Source of the DNA: Candidatus Fimivivens faecavium
GTDB lineage: Bacteria; Bacillota; Clostridia; Oscillospirales; Ruminococcaceae
NCBI GenBank assembly: GCA_018716105.1
Contig: DVKH01000012.1
Coordinates: 1,225-65,224, forward strand
Direction of reading: 5' to 3'
DNA: 64,000 nucleotides
Shown piece after piece: positions 1 to 10,427 of the stretch (position 1 is the stretch's first letter; every line of letters starts with the position of its first letter). The position numbers and the translations under genes are program-made. The notes under the pieces were generated by a model that saw nothing but the letters and a program-made list of their open reading frames with translations, made no database searches and was not told where the DNA came from.

Positions 1-115
1 TCCGGTGGGCCACCTCATAGGCATGGGCCAGGCCGATACCCAGCACATCTGCCACATTCTGTACCGTCAGCATCAGCGGGAGTTCTTCGAAGGATTTGTA
101 TTTGGATCTTCTCAT
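1..115 (-). CDS. helix-turn-helix (excisionase/MerR-like) DNA-binding protein, N-terminal part; gene runs off the left edge
   Basis: Reverse-strand ATG at 113-115 preceded by an AAGGAAG RBS. My translation is MRRSKYKSFEELPLMLTVQNVADVLGIGLAHAYEVAHR, which has the LTVxxVAxxLGI HTH signature typical of ICE/IME modules. Confidence 0.5.
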   Translation of the reverse strand, partial: MRRSKYKSFEELPLMLTVQNVADVLGIGLAHAYEVAHR

Positions 116-184
116 TGACTTCCTTTCCACCTTCCACGCGGAAGGATTTTTATTCTTTGTTTAGCGGCCCAGTTTTTGCGCCGC

Positions 185-1525
185 TCACATGGTCATGTCA
201 GGCCACTGCTCCTCATAGTCATCCGGCTTGTGGCCCAGTGCGATACGCTTTTCCTGCAGCTTCTTCAGTCGCTTGCGGTCGATTTGGATACCGCCGGGAC
301 GAGATTTGGGAACGGAGTTGTCCTGGAAGATCCGTCCCATGTGGTGGGGCAGTCTGGTCACCGCCAGCATGAAAGAGGGCGGACGGTTTTCTTCCAGATG
401 GTCCAGGAGAAACTGCGCATACTGGTTGCCCTGGTCAGCGGATTGGGTCAGCCAGTATACAGCCCGCTCCTCGTCATAGGGAACTACCTTTCCGGTGAGG
501 TACAGCTTGCCCAGCATGTACTGGGCATACTGGTTTCCGCGCTCTGCCGACCTGGTGAACCACTCCACCGCAGCGACTGTGTTCTTCTCCACATTCTCAC
601 CCTTGAGGATACTCCTTTGCCAGTCGGTACATTGCGTAGTGACTGCCGTTGGTCGCCGCCGTGTAGAGCCAGTTCATCCCCTGCTGGATGTTCCGTACCT
701 CCAAATCATCAGAGAGACACAGCTTGGCCAGAGAATACTGCGCCACCAGATGTCCCTGCTCCGCCGCCCGCTCGAACCAGTACTGTGCTTCCACCGAGTC
801 CGGTATCAGTATTGGCCCGTCCCGCCAAAGCTTTCCCATCAGGTATTGGGCGTACATATCACCGCTCTCAGCCAGCTTCTCCATTTCCGCCACGGCGTAG
901 CTCCGCTCATCCAGCGTCTGTCTCTCGCCCGGATCACATCCCGCAACGACCAGTAGTCAGAGGACTCGTTGCGGAATTCCTCCGGCTCATCGTGCTGGCT
1001 CAGATTCTTTTCTTCGAAGGTAACTTCGTCCAGCCGCAGGCGCTCCGCTTCGCGGATGACCGCATTTTTGATCTGTGTGAACTCCTTCTGCTTTGAGAGC
1101 GGGATGCGTTCCTGCGGCTTGTCATAATAGTACGCATCCACCTTACCCTGCAGGATCTGCCACTGCTCATAGCACTTGCTCACCGTAGGGAGCCGCTCCA
1201 TCTCGTCCACAATCTCATCTACCAGCTTCTTCATCCGCTTTGGGAGATAGCCGTAGGACTTCTTGCCCTTGACCGTTTCGAGCTGCGCCGCCAGCTCCAG
1301 CATGAGCCGCTCGGCCTCCGGGTGGCTGCACATTCCTTCCCGCATGGTCCGCACCAGTTCCAGCATCGCCCGACGGTCTTCCTGTACCAGCTCATCTCTG
1401 GACTCCGACTTCTGTTCATAAAGGTGGAGCATCTCGTTGCGGAAGATATCGTTGATCAGCTTGGACTTGATCTGACGGATGCCTGTCGTAGGTTTCCTGC
1501 CAGAAGCTGATGTATTCCCGAATCG
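185..1525 (-). pseudogene. relaxase/mobilisation protein remnant with C-terminal Sel1 (TPR-like) repeats; at least two frameshifts and no N-terminal relaxase domain
   Basis: ORFs 839-1432, 597-893 and 185-592 are colinear pieces in three frames. Reading across the junctions restores ...RDVIR/GERQTLDERSYAVAEMEKL... near 900-950 and ...AKEY/KGENVEKNTVAAVEWF... near 592-600. Repeated GNQYAQYxLGKLY Sel1 motifs are present. Confidence 0.6.
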
Positions 1526-2276
1526 TCATATCCCCACCTCCATGCACTGGCGCTGCAGATCCCGGAAGGCCACCCACGGCAGTCGGGCCTGTTGCAGCAG
1601 TTTCTTGTGGAGGTAATAGAATTCGTGGAGTTTGTAGGGTTCTTCTGTTTTGGGATTGAGGAATACCCAGGGTGAATCCGTTTCCGGCAGTCGCTCCAAC
1701 AGATGCTCCGCTCTGGGATTCAGCGTCAGCAGGCGCTGGCCCCGGTGGATGTACCGGCAGCGGACATGAAAATCGGCCCACGACAAGGTGATGAGTTCAC
1801 ATTGCCGCAGGCCGCTTGAAAGTCCTGTATAGATAATGGGAAGTACGTCCGCACTGCTCGGCGGCGTTCAGGTAACGCTGGATCTGCCCCAGACGGAGCG
1901 GGGCTGTCCTGTATTCTTCCGCCGCAGGCTCCGTGCAGAGCCGAACCGGGTTGTAGGGCATGAGCTGCTCCCGCGCCGCTTCGTCCATACATCGCCGCAG
2001 AAGCAGATGGACGCACCAGACACTTCTGGCGCTGAGTCCCTGGCTCCGCAAGTCATCGTAGAAGCCTGCGACCGTCTGTTCTGTCAGCGCAGTCAGTTCG
2101 ATGCCGCCGACGCCGGGGATAATGCGGCTGTAGATCAGGTTGCGGTAGCCGCCCTCGGTGTTGCCGTTCCACTTGCTTCGGTTGGTCTGAAACCAGCAGT
2201 CGCACCACTGCCCGACCGTGATTTTCTGTTCTTTCTGCATATCGTCGCCTCCTTTTTGGCAAACGAACAATATCAC
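1526..2276 (-). pseudogene. tyrosine recombinase/integrase, broken into an N-terminal SAM-like piece and a short C-terminal piece
   Basis: ORF 1797-2276 (TVGQWCDCWFQTNRSKWNGNTEGGYRNLIYSRIIP...LRSQGLSARSV) looks like a phage-integrase N-terminal domain. ORF 1526-1786 holds only about 85 aa of a catalytic-domain tail. A second integrase-like N-terminus (MTIREYISFWQETY) at about 1480-1525 is fused out of frame to relaxase sequence. Confidence 0.6.
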
Positions 2277-2326
2277 AGAAAGCGGAAAATAGCTATCGGA
2301 AAGAACGGAATATTTCAGAAAGAATA

Positions 2327-2362
2327 ATTATTCCGAATAATGTCGCTATTATTCGGAATAAT
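2327..2362. promoter_or_regulatory. perfect inverted repeat ATTATTCCGAATAAT-N6-ATTATTCGGAATAAT (candidate operator); a third half-site TTATTCGGAAG lies at 2373-2383
   Basis: Read directly. The 15-bp arms are exact reverse complements and abut the -35 of the promoter below. Confidence 0.6.
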
Positions 2363-2366
2363 GCAG

Positions 2367-2395
2367 TTGATTTTATTCGGAAGATTGGTTATAAT
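2367..2395 (+). promoter_or_regulatory. sigma70-type promoter TTGATT-17-TATAAT for the 2428 gene
   Basis: Hexamers at 2367-2372 and 2390-2395, about 30 nt upstream of the ATG. Confidence 0.5.
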
Positions 2396-2427
2396 GTTCT
2401 TGAAAACAGGCACGGAGGTGTTCCTAT

Positions 2428-4293
2428 ATGACAATTAAAGAAGCGGCTGCCGCTTGGGGCATTACCGAACGGCGGGTCAACGAGCTTTGCAAAGCCGGAC
2501 GCATCTCCGGCGCACATAAGGAAGGCAGACAGTGGTTTATCCCGGATGGCACGCAAAAGCCGATGGATAAGCGTGGCCGTCGGAATGCTGTGGCTCCGGT
2601 GCTGCCCTCCGTGCGCAAACCTCTGCCCATCGGCGTGTCCGATTACCGGGAGGCCTGCAATAATTACTACTATGTAGACAAAACACTGATGATCAAGGAG
2701 TTTCTGGATGAACGGCCCAAGGTATCCCTGTTCACCCGTCCCCGGCGCTTCGGTAAGACGCTGAACATGGATATGCTTCGTACTTTCTTCGAGAAAACGA
2801 CCGAGGATACCTCTATTTATTTCAGAGATAAGAAAATCTGGTCCTGTGGCGATTCCTACCGCGCTCATCAGAGAAAATATCCTGTTGTGTTTCTTTCCTT
2901 TAAGGATGTGAAATACACCTCCTGGGAGGAAACATACCAGACGCTCCAAAAGCTGATTGCACAGGAATTTCGCCGCCACGATGAATTGGCTTCCAGCTCC
3001 GCACTCAGCGATTATGAAAAAGAGGAATATTCCCGTCTTGCAACGGAAACAGCAGATGAAGTGGACTACCAAATGTCCCTTGGGACGCTGACGCTGCTTC
3101 TCCATAAGCACCACGATACTGCGCCCATCGTTATTATTGACGAATACGATACTCCCATCCAGCAGGGCCATGTGAATGGTTTTTACGATACCGTTATCGG
3201 CTTCATGCGCAATCTGTTCTCCGGTGGCCTGAAGGACAATCCAAATCTGAGTTATGGCTTCCTGACCGGCATCCTGCGTGTTGCCAAAGAGAGCATTTTC
3301 AGCGGTCTGAACAATCTGAAAATCAATTCCATCCTGGATGGGCGTTACAGCGAATACTTCGGTTTCACCTCAGAAGAAGTGCGTGAGATGGCGGAATACT
3401 ACGGCGCATCCGAAAAATATCAGGAGATCTGCGACTGGTACGATGGTTATCGTTTTGGTAACACCGATATTTTCAACCCTTGGTCCGTCATCGGGTACTT
3501 CAACAACAACTGCCGCCCCAAAGCATTCTGGCAGTCCACCGGCAGCAACGACATCATCCGTGAGGTTCTGGCCTCCGCTACACCGGATATCATGGAGCGT
3601 CTGGAAACATTGATGAAGGGCGAATCCTTCGTTACGCATATCGACACCGGCGTCATCTATCCGCAGATCCAGAACGATCCTTCCTCTGTTTACAGCTTCC
3701 TTCTGGTGGCAGGCTACTTGAAGGCTGTGAGCTGTGATCAGGCTTACGGCGAGGATTATATGTGCGAGGTCGCTCTGCCCAACAAAGAGATCTCTTTCGT
3801 ATACAGCAAAGAGATCCTTTCTCAGCTTGAGTATATTATTCCGCGCAGTCTTGCAATTGAGATCCAGGAAGCGATTTATAAGGTGGATATCCCCGCACTG
3901 CAGCGAGCTTTGGAAAAATATCTGATGCAGACCATCAGTTTCTACGACTCCAACGCTGAGGATTTCTATCACGGCATGGTTCTTGGATTCTGTGCCATGC
4001 TGAACAACAATTACCGCATTACCTCCAATCGTGAAGCCGGTAAGGGACGGTATGATGTCCAGCTTCTTCCTCTTCATAAGCAGCTTCCCGGTATTCTGAT
4101 TGAGTTGAAGGCTGGAAAAGATCTCTCCGAAGCACAGCTTGAGGATCTTTCCAAAGTCGCACTGCAGCAAATCAACGACCGGGCGTACAGTGTTGAATTG
4201 CAGGCAATGAAAGTCTCGTCCGTTGTAAAAATGGGTCTTGCATTTTCCGGCAAACATGCTCGTATTTCCGGAGATCAACAAGAACTCGAATGA
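2428..4293 (+). CDS. HTH domain + predicted AAA-ATPase-like domain + PD-(D/E)XK nuclease-like C-terminus (PF09820/PF08011-type architecture)
   Basis: 621-aa ORF. The N-terminus MTIKEAAAAWGITERRVNELCKAG is an HTH. GVSDYREACNNYYYVDKTLMIKEFLDERPKVSLFTRPRRFGKTLNMDMLRTFFE is the signature start of the predicted AAA-ATPase family. The C-terminal GKGRYDVQLLP...ILIELK resembles a PD-(D/E)XK core. Confidence 0.75.
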   Translation: MTIKEAAAAWGITERRVNELCKAGRISGAHKEGRQWFIPDGTQKPMDKRGRRNAVAPVLPSVRKPLPIGVSDYREACNNYYYVDKTLMIKEFLDERPKVSLFTRPRRFGKTLNMDMLRTFFEKTTEDTSIYFRDKKIWSCGDSYRAHQRKYPVVFLSFKDVKYTSWEETYQTLQKLIAQEFRRHDELASSSALSDYEKEEYSRLATETADEVDYQMSLGTLTLLLHKHHDTAPIVIIDEYDTPIQQGHVNGFYDTVIGFMRNLFSGGLKDNPNLSYGFLTGILRVAKESIFSGLNNLKINSILDGRYSEYFGFTSEEVREMAEYYGASEKYQEICDWYDGYRFGNTDIFNPWSVIGYFNNNCRPKAFWQSTGSNDIIREVLASATPDIMERLETLMKGESFVTHIDTGVIYPQIQNDPSSVYSFLLVAGYLKAVSCDQAYGEDYMCEVALPNKEISFVYSKEILSQLEYIIPRSLAIEIQEAIYKVDIPALQRALEKYLMQTISFYDSNAEDFYHGMVLGFCAMLNNNYRITSNREAGKGRYDVQLLPLHKQLPGILIELKAGKDLSEAQLEDLSKVALQQINDRAYSVELQAMKVSSVVKMGLAFSGKHARISGDQQELE

Positions 4294-4582
4294 TTTTCTT
4301 CGTTCAGCAGGCTGGCTCACTTGCGAGTCAGCCTGCTGCTATGCTTTCCGCCGGGTTTATTCCTTGTTTATGCGGCGCAATTCCTGCACCCTGTTCTGTG
4401 GTATATCGGGCAAATCTGGACGTAGTTTCTTTTAATATACAGAATTCAATCCCACACAAATCCCAAAAGGCGAAAGATTTGATTGAAGCAAACAGGGCAA
4501 AAGAGTTTCAAACAGGAACCGCAGGATTGAAGGAAAGCGACAAAGAGGTCGCAAGAGTTCCCGCTGAAGGTTCAGACACATA

Positions 4583-5005
4583 TTGATAAAAACATTTCCA
4601 GAAGCCCGGGTCTCCTGGTCTATCAACACATTGGACGAGGGTTTTAGGTCGGATATGGACAACGCGGCGTCGATTGAGCGCCGTCTTTCCGCTATGGGGG
4701 CTTTTTATCGAGCGGGCATTCGCACAACCTGTTTTATTTCGCCTATTTTCCCGGGCATTACGGACGTAGAAGCGATTATCCGGCGGGTAAAAAAACAGTG
4801 CAGCTTGATTTGGCTGGAAAACCTCAACCTGCGCGGCAGCTGCAAGACCGTGATGATGCAATACATACAAGATGCCCGGCCGCATCTGCTGCCCCTTTAT
4901 CGGGAGATTCACAGCGTTGGCATTGTAATGAATCACCGGGCGGAAATGATTGCGGCGATACTGGCTGTCTTTCTATGCCCGCAAATTAAGCAGAAAACAT
5001 TCTAG
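4583..5005 (+). pseudogene. C-terminal fragment of a radical SAM (SPL/DNA-photolyase-like) protein
   Basis: The 140-aa ORF covers only the distal barrel (SINTLDEGFRSDMDNAASIERRLSAMGAFYRAGIRTTCFISPIFPGITD...LENLNLRG). No CxxxCxxC-bearing N-terminus is found upstream in any frame. Confidence 0.5.
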
Positions 5006-5633: not shown

Positions 5634-6215
5634 TTATTTTTTAAGAATGATCTCGCCGTAAACCTCGCCCTTGCACCCCGCGGCATTCGATTCATCGGTG
5701 TCGATGTGCATTGCCGTCGCATAGGTGGGATCCACACGGCAGACCACGTCGTCAAAGATCAGCGAGCGGTCCTCGGAGCCGACCTTCACCTGAACGACCT
5801 GCTTGTCCTCTACGCCGTATTCCCTGGCGTCCTCGGGCGTAAAGTGGATGTGGCGCATCGCAACGATCACACCCTCGGAAAGCTCCACTTCGCCGCAGGG
5901 GCCGACCAGCCTGCAGGCGCCCGAACCCTCGATATGGCCGGATTCGCGCACCGGGGCGGAGATGCCGAGCGCTCTCGCGTCGGTCGCAGAAACCTCGACC
6001 TGGGTGCATTTGCGGACAGGGCCGATAATCGAGAGGTTTTTCATCGTAGATTTGGGGCCTACAAGATCCACCCGCTCATTCGAGGCGAACTGCCCGGGCT
6101 GCGAAAGCATCTTTTTAACCGAAAGCTGCGCGTTCTCGCCGAACAGGGTCTTCAGATCCCGCTCCGTTACATGGAGATGGCGCGCACTGGTTTCCACCAG
6201 GACTTTGTTTTTCAT
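5634..6215 (-). CDS. pduL: phosphate propanoyl/acetyl-transferase PduL
   Basis: VETSARHLHVTERDL...GPxR...QVExS.TDA..LG duplicated-domain pattern. Start trimmed to MKNKVLVE, which has a GAAGGAG RBS. Confidence 0.85.
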   Translation of the reverse strand: MKNKVLVETSARHLHVTERDLKTLFGENAQLSVKKMLSQPGQFASNERVDLVGPKSTMKNLSIIGPVRKCTQVEVSATDARALGISAPVRESGHIEGSGACRLVGPCGEVELSEGVIVAMRHIHFTPEDAREYGVEDKQVVQVKVGSEDRSLIFDDVVCRVDPTYATAMHIDTDESNAAGCKGEVYGEIILKK

Positions 6216-6341
6216 GTTATATGCTCCTTCTCTGCCGTAACCGGCTATTGCTTTCACGAGACGGCATAAATATCAACGAACGGATCACCGTCATAAATTC
6301 AAGTATTTCCGATTTCGCTTGCCGTAATTTATATAAAATGA

Positions 6342-6510
6342 CGATACCATAACGACGGCCCTATGGCCTGCGCGCCGCGGAAACGGCGTACAAACCGCCC
6401 AAAACCGATTTGAATTGCGGTGTAACAAGCGCAGCGCGCGGCGCCTGACGCGCGTGCCCCGCCAAAGGCGGGTTAAGTTGGGCAAGCCCAAATCTCTGCG
6501 GTTATGATCC
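6342..6510 (-). repeat. GC-rich structured repeat, copy B (proximal to pduL)
   Basis: The reverse complement aligns along its length with 9580-9751. Shared blocks are ATAACCGCAG, TTGGGC..GCCCAA, CCGCC..GGCGGGG, CTGCGCTTGTTAC, CCGCGGCGCGCAGGCC and CGTTATGG. Confidence 0.65.
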
Positions 6511-6652
6511 CAGAACAGGAAACCGCAAAGGTGGTTCCCGCCGCGCCTGCGGCGGGGCCTGGCGGCAGCCGGGCGGATCTGGTTAAACAAGCGCAGCATC
6601 CCGCCATCGCCGGCAATAAAAGCAAGGCTGTTTTCCCTGCTGGTTATTATAC
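6505..6652 (-). repeat. GC-rich structured repeat, copy A (distal, more diverged), beginning with GGTATAATAACC
   Basis: Shares GGTATAATAACC(A)GCAG and GCTGCGCTTGTTTAAC with the other copies. Lies in tandem with copy B. Confidence 0.5.
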
Positions 6653-6675
6653 CGTCTTGTTCAAATGCTTGTCAA
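6646..6675 (-). promoter_or_regulatory. sigma70-type promoter TTGACA-18-TATAAT reading into repeat copy A and on toward pduL
   Basis: Consensus hexamers on the minus strand (plus-strand TGTCAA 6670-6675, ATTATA 6646-6651). Confidence 0.5.
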
Positions 6676-6744
6676 CGAAGATGACATTTTTTTACGGCTG
6701 TGCTATACTGAAAACCAAATCGAAAAAGCTGGAGGAATGGAAAA

Positions 6745-7329
6745 ATGACGGATAATTTAGCACAATTGAGGGAACGCGCCTCCGGCTGCACGTCCTGCCG
6801 GCTCGCGCAGACCAGAACAAACGTCGTCTTCGGCGTCGGGAACCCGAACGCTCGAGTGATGTTCATCGGGGAAGGCCCGGGAAAAAACGAGGACGAACAG
6901 GGCGAACCGTTTGTCGGCCGCGCCGGCCAGCTTCTCGACCGGATGCTTGGCGGAATCAACCTCTTCCGGGATAAAAACATCTATATTGCCAATATGGTCA
7001 AATGCCGTCCGCCCGAAAACCGGGACCCGGCTCCGGACGAGGTTTCCGAATGCATCGGCTATCTCCGCGAGCAGATTAAACTGATCCATCCCAAAATCCT
7101 GGTCTGCCTCGGCCGGATCGCGGCCCAGTACCTGATCACCCCAGATTTTAAAGTGACAAAGCAGCACGGCGAATTCTTTGAGCGCGGCGATTTTCTCATG
7201 ATGGGGACGCTCCACCCCGCGGCGATCCTGCGCAATCCCGGGCAGAAGGCGCTCGCCTTTGAGGATTTTGTAGGACTCCGCCACCGTATCCTGGAACTCT
7301 GTCCCGAGGTCTATGAAGGGATTGAATAA
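6745..7329 (+). CDS. udg: uracil-DNA glycosylase, family 4
   Basis: CxxCxL...VFGxGNPNARVMFIGEGPG...FVGRAG and a C-terminal HPAA motif. Confidence 0.85.
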   Translation: MTDNLAQLRERASGCTSCRLAQTRTNVVFGVGNPNARVMFIGEGPGKNEDEQGEPFVGRAGQLLDRMLGGINLFRDKNIYIANMVKCRPPENRDPAPDEVSECIGYLREQIKLIHPKILVCLGRIAAQYLITPDFKVTKQHGEFFERGDFLMMGTLHPAAILRNPGQKALAFEDFVGLRHRILELCPEVYEGIE

Positions 7330-9152: not shown

Positions 9153-9194
9153 CGTAAGAAACAAAATGAGGGACTGCACTGAAATATGCGCGGT
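9153..9194 (+). terminator. rho-independent terminator of nhaC
   Basis: AAAATGAGGGAC ... GTCCCTCATTTT, a 12-bp stem ending in a T-run. Confidence 0.75.
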
Positions 9195-9557
9195 CCCTCA
9201 TTTTCACATCAACCGGCCAAAAACTATGTCGTCTACAATTTGATGGGCCGGTTCCGCTCGGGAATTAGATTTCAGGCCGTTTTTCCCCAGGCGTTTCGAG
9301 AATGCCCTCCAGCCAGGGATTCGTCCCAACGGCAAATACGATTACCAGAGTGGGTTCTACCCCTGGGGCGGGGAACCAACTCCCCAAAAATGCCGGATCA
9401 AATCACACGGGGCCAGGGACCTGCGGCCCTTACGACAGCTTTCAAAATAATGGGTGCCGGCGCTTTGAAACGGCGGCGAAATCATCGCCGCCGCCCCATT
9501 CGTCCTCAAATGAACAACTCCCCCGGCACGCTTTGACAGCGCGTCACCAGTTTCTTC

Positions 9558-9587
9558 TTGCCCGTTCTGCCGTTTCGATGGTATAAT
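9558..9587 (+). promoter_or_regulatory. promoter TTGCCC-18-TGgTATAAT (extended -10) embedded in the start of repeat copy C
   Basis: Hexamers at 9558-9563 and 9582-9587, with a TG two bases upstream of the -10. Confidence 0.45.
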
Positions 9588-9751
9588 AACCGCAGTAAAT
9601 TGGGCAAGGCCCAATTTGCCCCGCCTGCGGCGGGGCGGCGCGGTTAAATCCGCGCCCTGCGCTTGTTACGCCAGAACCCCAACCGGCTTTGCCGGTCTGT
9701 CCGCCGCTCCCGCGGCGCGCAGGCCCGATTGGCCCTGCCGTTATGGCATAC
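9580..9751 (+). repeat. GC-rich structured repeat, copy C, in front of the cytidylate-kinase-like gene
   Basis: Three consecutive hairpins (TTGGGC/GCCCAA, CCCCGCC/GGCGGGG, GGCGCGG/CCGCGCC) are bracketed by CCGCAG...CTGCG. Same block order as 6342-6510 on the other strand. Confidence 0.65.
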
Positions 9752-9797
9752 TGAAATAAAGCAGAAATCGGCTTCGCATCAAAGGAGGTTGGCCCTG

Positions 9798-10427
9798 ATG
9801 ACACATACGGTAATCACCATCGCGCGCGGACACGGAAGCGGCGGCAGACGGATTGGAAAGCGCCTGGCCAAGGAACTCGGCTTTGCCTTTTATGACCGGG
9901 AGCTGCTTCGACTCGCTTCGGAGGACAGCGGCATTAACGAGCGTTTGTTTGCAGAGGCGGACGAGACGATGAAAAACAGCCTTTTGTTCCGCGTCGCCAA
10001 AAAGGTCTACAAAGGCGACATCATCCCGCCGGACCGGGACGACTTTGTTTCAAACGAAAACCTCTTCAACTATCAGGCGAAGGTCATCCGCGAGCTTGCG
10101 CAGGAAGGCCCCTCGGTCATCGTCGGACGCTGCGCCGACTTTGTGTTAAAAGATCACGAGCGGCTGGTTCGAATCTACATCCACGCGCCGCTGGAAACCT
10201 GCATCGACCGTCAGGAAGCGATGATCAGCCTGCCGAGAAAGACGCTCGAAAAGCAGATCGTCACCACAGACAAGCGCCGCGCCGCCTACTACCGCTATTT
10301 TACCGGACGGGACTGGAAAGACGCGGACCACTACGATCTCTGCTTCGACAGCAGCGTTTTGAGCGAGCAGAAATGCGTCGACCTGATCCGCGCCTACATC
10401 GCCGCCCGCTTTAAAGAGGAACCCTGA
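9798..10427 (+). CDS. cytidylate kinase-like family protein (PF13189-type)
   Basis: MTHTVITIARGHGSGGRRIGKRLAKELGFAFYDRELL is the typical N-terminus of this family. GGAGG RBS. Confidence 0.8.
   Translation: MTHTVITIARGHGSGGRRIGKRLAKELGFAFYDRELLRLASEDSGINERLFAEADETMKNSLLFRVAKKVYKGDIIPPDRDDFVSNENLFNYQAKVIRELAQEGPSVIVGRCADFVLKDHERLVRIYIHAPLETCIDRQEAMISLPRKTLEKQIVTTDKRRAAYYRYFTGRDWKDADHYDLCFDSSVLSEQKCVDLIRAYIAARFKEEP

What the first reader, a model, noticed from the sequence alone, without database searches (positions are those of the whole stretch)
6342..6675. Tandem copies of a GC-rich, hairpin-dense repeat between a consensus promoter and pduL
On the minus strand a TTGACA-18-TATAAT promoter (6646-6675) is followed by two related units of about 150-170 nt (6652-6505 and 6510-6342) and then by about 125 nt of AT-rich spacer before pduL. 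Unit B aligns block for block with 9580-9751 on the other strand. The shared blocks are ATAACCGCAG, hairpin TTGGGC/GCCCAA, hairpin CCGCC/GGCGGGG, a third GC hairpin whose sequence differs but still pairs, CTGCGCTTGTTAC, CCGCGGCGCGCAGGCC and CGTTATGG. By eye about two thirds of positions match, stems are kept and loops vary. I could not match it to any riboswitch class I know (SAM, B12, TPP, FMN, lysine, glycine, ZTP, c-di-AMP/GMP, ykkC, Mn, T-box). Three explanations remain open: a multi-copy sRNA or leader family, a MITE-like element (the ends ATAACCGCAG / CTGCCGTTAT are inverted), or a REP-type repeat.
Basis: seen in the sequence. Interest (0 to 1): 0.65.

Follow-up and report, generated by a model that had tools for sequence, protein, structure and literature searches.

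The report
Modular hairpin repeat anchored at promoters
The GC-rich tandem units upstream of pduL belong to a multi-copy, modular repeat seen so far only in one chicken-gut Clostridia species, where it sits in head-to-tail arrays starting at the -10 promoter box of unrelated genes; it most resembles known bacterial interspersed repeats such as pneumococcal BOX elements, not a riboswitch.

Summary
Unit B (6344-6512, minus) and unit C (9579-9749, plus) are 75% identical over 173 nt. Unit A (6512-6654) is a weaker, mosaic relative. No Rfam family matches.

The window comes from Candidatus Fimivivens faecavium (Oscillospiraceae). The orthologous UDG/pduL intergenic region in six relatives keeps the promoter but has no repeat.

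A protein search with a spurious ORF antisense to unit C found four more arrays. At least one, probably two, come from the same species. They lie upstream of pcrA/uvrD, a phoH-like gene, a membrane protein and a secreted protein.

All six arrays are head-to-tail, point toward the downstream gene and start with TG(G/A)TATAAT. Each unit has two hairpin-cluster domains. Internal units carry one type of 3' domain (beta) and terminal units another (alpha).

Stems keep pairing through compensatory changes. Loops vary freely and the downstream genes are functionally unrelated. Units at unlinked loci are up to 96% identical.

Best reading: a lineage-restricted, BOX-like modular interspersed repeat, or "mobile promoter-leader", transcribed as a structured 5' UTR. 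How it spreads is unknown. It is a new member of a known kind and of moderate interest.

The parts
6646..6675 (-). pduL promoter, TTGACA-18-TATAAT. Its -10 box is the first element of unit A.
   Evidence: One search gives a 12/12 consensus match. The same TTGACA-N17/18-TATAAT promoter stands in front of pduL in two relatives that lack the repeat.
6512..6654 (-). Unit A, a mosaic unit. It has the shared start (GGTATAATAACCAGCAG), a small hairpin with a U run instead of H1-H3, CTGCGCTTGTT, and a beta-type 3' domain with three hairpins.
   Evidence: CM scores are 19.5 and 21.8 bits. The beta domain aligns with L181, L182, L183 and L184 units. Identity to the other units is 72-83%.
6611..6641 (-). 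Terminator-like hairpin AGCAGGGAAAACAGCCTTGCT followed by TTTATTG, placed just after the predicted transcription start. The same module ends the L184 array.
   Evidence: flags it as a terminator-like site. One search shows the L184 counterpart...CATAACCGCAGGGAAAGCAGCTTTGCTGTTTTCGG.
6344..6512 (-). Unit B, an alpha-type terminal unit with a decayed -10 box (TGGGATCAT) and shortened stems.
   Evidence: R1 scores 154 bits and R2 91.8 bits. It is 77% identical to C in the global alignment (75% over 173 nt by blastn) and 81% to L181_u3. Its folding z-score is only -0.84.
6216..6343 (-). AT-rich spacer between unit B and the pduL start codon. It begins with a decayed unit start (TGGTATCGT ... GCAAGCGAAATCGG).
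   Evidence: A comparable vestige follows unit C and L181_u3.
5634..6215 (-). pduL (phosphate propanoyltransferase), the gene downstream of units A and B.
   Evidence: Pfam PF06130, E 8e-78.
9558..9587 (+). Promoter-like site TTGCCC-18-TATAAT with a TG extension (TGGTATAAT). It forms the start of unit C.
9579..9749 (+). Unit C, a solo alpha-type unit and the best preserved copy in the window.
   Evidence: R1 scores 209 bits and R2 101 bits. Folding z-score is -6.08. It is 86% identical to L181_u3.
9744..9771 (+). Vestigial start of a further unit after C (TGGCATACTGAAATAAAGCAGAAATCGG, compare TGGTATAATAACCGCAGTAAATTGG). It may be the original gene-proximal -10 region.
   Evidence: Read from the sequence. 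This is an inference.
9798..10427 (+). Cytidylate-kinase-like gene downstream of unit C.
   Evidence: Pfam PF13189, E 6e-54.

Best explanation
The units belong to a modular interspersed repeat family found so far only in Candidatus Fimivivens faecavium. It resembles a BOX element or a 'putative mobile promoter'.

A full unit is about 170 nt and has three parts:
1. A start module, TG(G/A)TATAAT-AACCGCAG, which is an extended -10 promoter box plus the first transcribed bases.
2. A 5' domain of three GC hairpins (H1, H2, H3), closed by CGCAG/CUGCG plus an AU-rich extension.
3. A 3' domain of three more hairpins, in a beta form (internal units) or an alpha form (last unit before the gene). A helix that uses the TGGTAT of the next unit closes this domain.

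Arrays of one to three units sit between a promoter and the ribosome-binding site of functionally unrelated genes, always pointing toward the gene.

Shown here: multiple copies at unlinked loci, the modular array structure, the orientation, absence from the same site in relatives, and maintenance of stems by compensatory changes.

Inferred: arrays grow by unequal recombination between start modules. The family reaches new promoters by an unknown copy mechanism, possibly using the shared -10 region as the junction. The array is transcribed as a long structured 5' UTR. Its effect is then generic, meaning it supplies or keeps a -10 box and alters mRNA stability, processing or attenuation. It does not sense a ligand.
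For: - **Copies at other loci.** Spurious ORFs antisense to the element gave four further arrays. CM scores are 78-146 bits.
- **Same species.** L181 proteins fall in clusters of at least 90% identity with Ca. F. faecavium proteins. L184 proteins share cluster members found on contigs whose longest length (160,337 bp) is the same as that listed for the L181 UvrD cluster.
- **Unrelated neighbours.** The downstream genes have no common function.
- **Promoter anchoring.** All six arrays begin with TATAAT preceded by TGG, TGA or, in unit A, CGG. Internal units keep TATAAT only where the units of an array are 94-98% identical; elsewhere they carry TATCAT, GATCAT, TTTCAT or TGCAAT.
- **Recent copying.** L181_u1 and L184_u1 lie at unlinked loci and are 96% identical over 173 nt.
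- **Recent tandem duplication.** L182_u1 and L182_u2 are identical except inside the -10 hexamer.
- **Insertion, not ancestral sequence.** Six relatives keep the divergent UDG/pduL arrangement, but the intergenic region is 160-240 nt instead of 530 nt, and no CM hit is found.
- **Stable folds.** Intact units have folding z-scores of -5.5 to -7.1.
- **Compensatory changes.** Seven pairs changed on both sides and still pair. Between L181_u1 and L182_u1, 6 of 58 pairs changed on both sides and all 6 still pair. Paired positions differ at 14.7% and unpaired positions at 29%.
- **No known family.** Rfam gives nothing.
Against: - No whole genome could be scanned, so total copy number and the orientation statistics rest on six loci. 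Four of these were found through spurious ORFs.
- No transposase, clean terminal inverted repeat or target-site duplication was identified, so mobility is inferred only from distribution and identity.
- No transcription data are available.
- Compensatory changes show that the hairpins matter but not at which level. G-U and A-C mismatches are equally common, so the structure gives no strand signal.
- The species of origin of L182 and L183 is not established.
- The 16 same-species contigs show no copy-number variation at the pduL locus. BOX arrays, by contrast, vary in length between strains.
Confidence: 0.6

Rival explanations
1. A family of cis-regulatory leader RNAs. The structured units in the 5' UTR would be bound by a global RNA-binding protein, an RNase or a small ligand, and would co-regulate pduL, the kinase-like gene, pcrA and the others.
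For: All six arrays sit in 5' regions and point toward the gene. Stems are kept by compensatory changes and evolve half as fast as unpaired positions. Folding is very stable.
Against: Loops and junctions vary freely and no unpaired nucleotides are conserved outside the start module and CUGCGC. The downstream genes share no function. Copy number per locus ranges from 1 to 3, with truncated and mosaic units. Near-identical units occur at unlinked loci (96%). The element is absent from the pduL leader of six relatives. Rfam gives no match.
Confidence: 0.17
2. A classical non-autonomous transposon (MITE) moved by a transposase encoded elsewhere in the genome. ATAACCGCAG / CTGCCGTTAT would be the terminal inverted repeats and the flanking TGGTAT would be a target-site duplication.
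For: The element is small, non-coding, multi-copy and dispersed, and it is missing from the orthologous site in relatives. In unit C the ends are 9/10 complementary. Units B and C are flanked by similar 8-mers, TGGGATCA/TGGTATCG and TGGTATAA/TGGCATAC. Correia elements likewise carry promoters (PMC3049150, PMC3575422).
Against: Beta-type units lack the 3' inverted repeat. The flanking TGGTAT is simply the start of the next unit in head-to-tail arrays, so it need not be a duplication. Orientation is uniform. No related insertion sequence was seen in the 64 kb window or the 20 kb of L181. Nothing similar was found in plasmids, phages or IMG/VR.
Confidence: 0.13
3. Tandem small-RNA genes. Each unit would be transcribed from its own TGGTATAAT promoter into a roughly 170 nt structured sRNA.
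For: A perfect extended -10 box stands at the head of every unit in L181 and of two units in L184. The unit fold is compact and stable.
Against: Units do not end in an intrinsic terminator. The -10 box is decayed in most internal units. The closing helix of the 5' domain includes the -10 box itself, which a transcript started 7 nt downstream would not contain.
Confidence: 0.07
4. A purely local segmental duplication of the pduL promoter region, with no family beyond this 3.4 kb stretch.
For: All three window copies lie within 3.4 kb and nothing else is found in the 64 kb window.
Against: Units that are 81-86% identical to B and C stand upstream of pcrA/uvrD on a different contig of the same species. 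Three further loci also carry related units.
Confidence: 0.02

Closest known systems
BOX elements of Streptococcus pneumoniae and BOX-type repeats of S. suis (PMC3049150)
   Same: Both are composite interspersed intergenic repeats built from distinct modules. An internal module occurs in tandem in variable number between terminal modules. Both are predicted to fold into stable stem-loops when transcribed, both lie next to unrelated genes, and BOX elements are known to raise or lower expression of neighbouring genes.
   Different: There is no sequence similarity. Modules here are larger, about 100 nt for the 5' domain and about 70 nt for the 3' domain. The whole unit is repeated, not only an inner module. 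Every array starts with an extended -10 box and points toward the downstream gene. The host is an Oscillospiraceae species. No length variation between strains was seen at the one locus that could be compared.
Putative mobile promoters (Matus-Garcia, Nijveen and van Passel 2012; summary in PMC3575422)
   Same: Both are highly similar non-coding sequences (at least 80% identity over at least 50 nt) upstream of non-homologous genes within one genome. Here, units upstream of pcrA and of the phoH-like gene are 96% identical.
   Different: That category is operational and mixed. Here the repeated piece includes the -10 box and a long structured leader, and it forms tandem arrays.
Correia elements (Neisseria), ERIC, and bcr1 of the Bacillus cereus group (MITE-like repeats that are co-transcribed and fold as RNA)
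   Same: All are small non-coding dispersed repeats of about 100-170 nt. Correia elements can create promoters and are processed as RNA hairpins (cited in PMC3049150 and PMC3575422). The comparison with bcr1 rests on my own knowledge.
   Different: Those elements have clear terminal inverted repeats and target-site duplications and occur in both orientations. None of that is shown here.
REP / BIME / REPIN
   Same: GC-rich extragenic palindromes with a mosaic arrangement, whose hairpins are preserved.
   Different: REP units are single palindromes of 20-40 nt linked to a RAYT transposase and usually lie at the 3' ends of genes. Here a unit holds six different hairpins and lies at the 5' ends of genes.

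Membership tests
Any Rfam family (riboswitch, leader or sRNA) | Match to the family covariance model at its gathering score | tested here: not met
   Zero matches at gathering score across the whole window. At E up to 10, only chance-level partial matches appear on units A-C.
Riboswitch-like aptamer | Conserved nucleotides concentrated in junctions and loops, with covarying stems | tested here: not met
   Stems covary, but loops vary freely. H1 loops are AAG, UU, UUCG, UUUG and others. H2 loops are UGC, UUU, GGU and AAA. H3 loops are UUAAAU, AGAC and GGAC. Junctions vary in length.
Riboswitch-like aptamer | Association with functionally coherent downstream genes across species | tested here: not met
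   The downstream genes are pduL, a Cytidylate_kin2 gene, a UvrD/PcrA helicase, a KH/PhoH-like gene, a membrane protein and a secreted protein. The element is absent upstream of pduL in six relatives.
MITE | Terminal inverted repeats | tested here: inconclusive
   In unit C, ATAACCGCAG and CTGCCGTTAT are 9/10 complementary. The match is weaker in unit B and absent in beta-type units, which end in CCTGATATGG.
MITE | Target-site duplication flanking each copy | tested here: inconclusive
   Similar 6-8-mers (TGGTAT...) flank units B and C, but these are the start of the next unit in head-to-tail arrays. No pair of filled and empty sites within the species was available.
MITE | Small, non-coding, multi-copy and dispersed, with presence/absence differences between relatives | tested here: met
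   Six loci carry 13 or more units. Indels between copies break every reading frame. The element is absent at the orthologous site in relatives.
MITE | A related autonomous insertion sequence with the same ends | not tested
   No complete genome was accessible. No other occurrence of the end motif exists in the 64 kb window.
BOX-type composite repeat | Distinct modules, with tandem repetition of an internal module between terminal modules | tested here: met
   Arrays read beta-beta-alpha (L181, L182), beta-alpha (window A-B), solo alpha (window C), and beta followed by truncated or mosaic units (L183, L184).
BOX-type composite repeat | Many dispersed intergenic copies per genome and array-length variation between strains | tested here: inconclusive
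   At least 4-6 loci are known, but the genome-wide count is not. The 16 same-species contigs all carry A+B and C with 97-100% identity and no length change.
Putative mobile promoter | At least 80% identity over at least 50 nt upstream of non-homologous genes in one genome (PMC3575422) | tested here: met
   L181_u1 versus L184_u1 is 96% over 173 nt. Window C versus L181_u3 is 86% over 173 nt.
REP / REPIN | Single palindrome of 20-40 nt, often in inverted pairs, with a RAYT gene | tested here: not met
   A unit is about 170 nt with six different hairpins, and arrays are direct, not inverted. Whether a RAYT gene is present was not tested.

The most novel reading that the evidence does not exclude
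The element could be a self-propagating promoter-plus-leader cassette whose hairpins are selected at the RNA level. Arrays of structured units in the 5' UTRs of many unrelated genes would then form a binding platform for one global RNA-binding protein or RNase. That would place those genes under a common post-transcriptional control that arose recently in a single gut Clostridia lineage. It would be a regulon assembled by a mobile RNA module, not by point mutation.
Probability: 0.15. Interest if true: 0.7.

Novelty: new member of a known kind. Interest (0 to 1): 0.4.

Why it matters
Interspersed repeats are barely described in the uncultured Oscillospiraceae of animal guts. This family shows three practical points:
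- A long 'orphan structured leader' can be a lineage-specific repeat and not a riboswitch.
- Such repeats can carry a working-looking extended -10 box and stay anchored at promoters. This is a concrete case of promoter and leader reuse.
- They create spurious ORFs in metagenome gene catalogues, for example the 83-aa ORF at 6504-6755 and P0268-P0271.

If the hairpins act in RNA, the family would be a natural example of rapid rewiring of 5' UTRs.

Tried and rejected
- **Rfam.** Searches at gathering score and at E up to 10 gave nothing credible.
- **Genome-contig scan.** The pattern CTGCGCTTGTT-N30-60-GCGCAGGCC was too loose.
- **Metagenome scan.** A stricter pattern gave two chance hits, so the species is apparently not in the JGI set.
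- **Viral contigs.** Three pattern scans gave only chance hits.
- **Plasmids and phages.** blastn of unit C found no match.
- **Literature.** A search for a pduL-associated riboswitch candidate found nothing.
- **Profile search.** A search with peptides antisense to the units returned one protein, an 83-aa sequence (P0272) that I take to be the window's own 83-aa ORF; its sequence was not checked.
- **Coding potential.** Rejected, because indels of 1-2 nt between B and C break every frame.
- **Transcription-factor palindromes.** Rejected, because the spacing between H1 half-sites varies from 2 to 5 nt.
- **Strand assignment from wobble pairs.** G-U and A-C mismatches occur in similar numbers (23 and 18 cells; 12 and 18 once the invariant U-G pair is set aside), so the test is uninformative.
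- **tRNA-derived origin.** ARAGORN found no tRNA or tmRNA in the window.

Full report
**Observation**

On the minus strand, a perfect TTGACA-18-TATAAT promoter lies at 6675-6646. It is followed by two GC-rich units and then about 125 nt of AT-rich spacer before pduL, which runs from 6215 to 5634 (Pfam PF06130).

Unit B (6344-6512) aligns with unit C (9579-9749, plus strand) at 75% identity over 173 nt, with blastn E 1e-22 to 1e-24.

Unit A (6512-6654) is a weak relative, scoring 19.5 and 21.8 bits with the two covariance models. No other copy exists in the 64 kb window.

**Not a known RNA**

Rfam 15 gives no match at gathering score anywhere in the window. At E up to 10 only chance-level partial matches appear on the units. 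The window contains no tRNA or tmRNA.

**Context and organism**

pduL is divergent from a uracil-DNA glycosylase gene (UDG). Unit C lies between an NhaC-type antiporter gene, which has its own terminator at about 9166-9205, and a Cytidylate_kin2 gene.

Exact protein look-ups name the organism as Candidatus Fimivivens faecavium, family Oscillospiraceae. Sixteen same-species contigs carry A, B and C at 97-100% identity.

**The repeat is an insertion relative to other species**

Six contigs encode PduL proteins that are 74-77% identical to the window's protein. All keep the divergent UDG/pduL arrangement. In the two that were read, the TTGACA-N17/18-TATAAT promoter is also kept. Their intergenic region is only 160-240 nt, against 530 nt in the window. 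No covariance-model match is found even with the speed filters turned off.

The first bases after the -10 box in one relative read TATAATAATGGCAGAAAACAG. Unit A reads TATAATAACCAGCAGGGAAAACAG at the same place. The 5' end of unit A therefore looks like the ancestral pduL promoter and start of the 5' UTR. This last step is an inference.

**Finding the family elsewhere**

DNA pattern scans failed. The genome scan used too loose a pattern and returned only noise. The metagenome and viral scans found only chance hits. Plasmid and phage BLAST found nothing.

What worked was a protein search with the 86-aa spurious ORF that runs antisense through unit C. It returned four predicted 'proteins', each with two or three matching stretches. 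These are spurious ORFs reading through tandem copies of the element. For example, the peptide PIYCGYYTI is the antisense translation of GGTATAATAACCGCAGTAAATTGG.

The contigs encoding these ORFs could be fetched. They carry units scoring 78-146 bits. The four arrays are:
- **L181:** three units upstream of a pcrA/uvrD helicase gene, divergent from an mscS-type channel gene.
- **L184:** between yqfD and a KH/PhoH-like gene.
- **L183:** between rnj (RNase J) and a membrane-protein gene.
- **L182:** upstream of a gene encoding a signal-peptide protein.

L181 proteins fall in clusters of at least 90% identity with Ca. F. faecavium proteins. L184 proteins share cluster members found on contigs whose longest length (160,337 bp) is the same as that listed for the L181 UvrD cluster. 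The species of origin of L182 and L183 is unknown.

**Anatomy**

A full unit is about 170 nt and has three parts:
1. **Start module:** TG(G/A)TATAAT-AACCGCAG, which is an extended -10 box plus the first transcribed bases.
2. **5' domain:** three hairpins, H1 (UUGGGC/GCCCAA), H2 (CCCGCC/GGCGGG) and H3 (GCGCGG/CCGCGC). They are closed by CGCAG/CUGCG plus an AU-rich extension that pairs with the -10 box region.
3. **3' domain:** three further hairpins, in one of two forms.
   - The beta form ends in CCTGATA|TGGTAT and is always followed by another unit.
   - The alpha form ends in GTTA|TGGYAT and is the last full unit before the gene.

The two forms share the central hairpin CGCCGC-loop-GCGGCG.

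The arrays read as follows:
- beta-beta-alpha in L181 and L182
- beta-alpha in the window (A then B)
- solo alpha in the window (C)
- beta followed by truncated or mosaic units in L183 and L184

The small hairpin with a U run that replaces H1-H3 in unit A also ends the L184 array.

Minimum-free-energy folds of intact units recover the two-domain picture. Their z-scores are -5.5 to -7.1 against dinucleotide-preserving shuffles. Unit B is degenerate, with a z-score of -0.84.

The 3' TGGTAT is simply the start of the next unit.

**Promoter anchoring**

The first unit of all six arrays carries TATAAT, preceded by TGG or TGA in five of them and by CGG in unit A, which instead has a consensus -35. 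Some of the others also have a reasonable -35 element.

Internal units keep TATAAT only in arrays whose units are 94-98% identical to each other (L181 and L184_u2). Elsewhere they carry TATCAT, GATCAT, TTTCAT or TGCAAT.

L182_u1 and L182_u2 are identical except for three bases inside the hexamer. That pattern is what unequal crossing-over between start modules would produce (inference). Each array is followed by a decayed start module and then a unique short leader.

**Are the hairpins selected?**

With only B and C there was no covariation signal. With the wider set, seven pairs show changes on both sides that keep pairing:
- G-C to A-U in the outer closing helix
- A-U to G-C at the base of H1
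- G-C, C-G and U-G at the base of H3
- C-G to U-A in the central beta hairpin
- G-C to C-G and A-U to G-C in the last beta hairpin
- C-G, U-G and U-A in the first alpha hairpin

Covariation scores exceed 499-500 of 500 shuffles for the 5' and beta domains. The tool warns that related sequences can produce this without any structure.

A pairwise count is more telling. Between L181_u1 and L182_u1, paired positions differ at 14.7% and unpaired positions at 29%. Six of 58 pairs changed on both sides, and all six still pair. About 1.3 double changes would be expected under independence (my own calculation from the numbers).

The stems are therefore maintained. Loops and junctions are free, which is the opposite of a ligand-binding aptamer. 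G-U and A-C mismatches occur in similar numbers, so the structure does not reveal which strand, or whether RNA or single-stranded DNA, is under selection.

**Interpretation**

The element has these properties:
- multi-copy
- dispersed at unlinked loci of one species
- near-identical between some of those loci (96%)
- absent from the same site in relatives
- modular, with internal tandem units
- located next to functionally unrelated genes

This is the signature of a bacterial interspersed repeat. The closest described kinds are the composite BOX elements (PMC3049150) and the operational class of 'putative mobile promoters' (PMC3575422).

It is not a plain MITE on present evidence. Beta units lack a terminal inverted repeat, no clean target-site duplication is seen, and orientation is uniform. 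It is not REP-like.

How it spreads is unknown. I infer tandem growth by unequal recombination. I also infer that the shared TGGTATAAT region is the junction when a new promoter is colonised.

The most likely consequence is a long, very stable 5' UTR that either donates or preserves a -10 box and changes mRNA stability, processing or attenuation. None of this functional part is shown.

**Limits**

- No complete genome of the species could be scanned.
- Four of the six loci were found through spurious ORFs, which is an ascertainment bias.
- No transcript data exist.
- Two of the six regions are divergent, so any orientation there would point at a gene.
- The uniform orientation therefore rests mainly on three or four co-directional regions.

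**Verdict**

The feature is real. It is a new member of a known kind: a lineage-restricted modular interspersed repeat, or mobile promoter-leader. It is not a riboswitch. Interest is moderate, at 0.4.

Noticed in passing
window 6504-6755 (+): Gene callers annotate an 83-aa ORF with no Pfam domain that overlaps the UDG start. It runs antisense through unit A and is almost certainly spurious. P0268-P0271 are similar artefacts reading through other arrays, so this repeat seeds false proteins in metagenome catalogues.
   Followed up: yes
window about 1-5000 (compare L001-L004 with L005, L006, L010, L013): The region beyond pduL and the PC4-domain gene varies between strains. Some contigs, and the window, carry an island with AAA-ATPase_like/PDDEXK_9, MobL, Sel1, HTH_17 and a phage-type integrase, next to a shortened Fpg gene (199 aa). 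Other contigs have radical-SAM, nitroreductase and MarR genes at that position, and in some of those (L004, L009, L011, L014) Fpg is full length (275-277 aa). The island looks like an integrative mobilisable element.
   Followed up: partly
window 9205-9578 (+): About 370 nt with no called gene, no Pfam hit for the ORFs tested and no Rfam hit. It lies between the nhaC terminator (9166-9205) and unit C and includes a GC hairpin at 9470-9495. Its nature is unknown.
   Followed up: no
window 9798-10427 (+): Outside this species, the closest homologues of the cytidylate-kinase-like protein are only 60-67% identical, and the named ones come from Lachnospiraceae-type genera (Mobilitalea, Anaerocolumna, Niameybacter). 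The relatives that share the UDG/pduL arrangement have other genes after UDG. Horizontal acquisition of the nhaC-kinase segment is possible.
   Followed up: no
L016 1372-1900: On this low-coverage contig (coverage 2.8) PduL is only 88% identical to the window protein. The upstream A+B leader is nearly identical at the DNA level (unit B about 99%). The cause may be sequencing errors or recombination in pduL.
   Followed up: no
L181 9826-9897 (-): The start of the pcrA/uvrD gene differs between annotations, giving 774 or 798 aa. The longer form starts at an ATG preceded by GGGGAAGG, about 100 nt after the last repeat unit.
   Followed up: no
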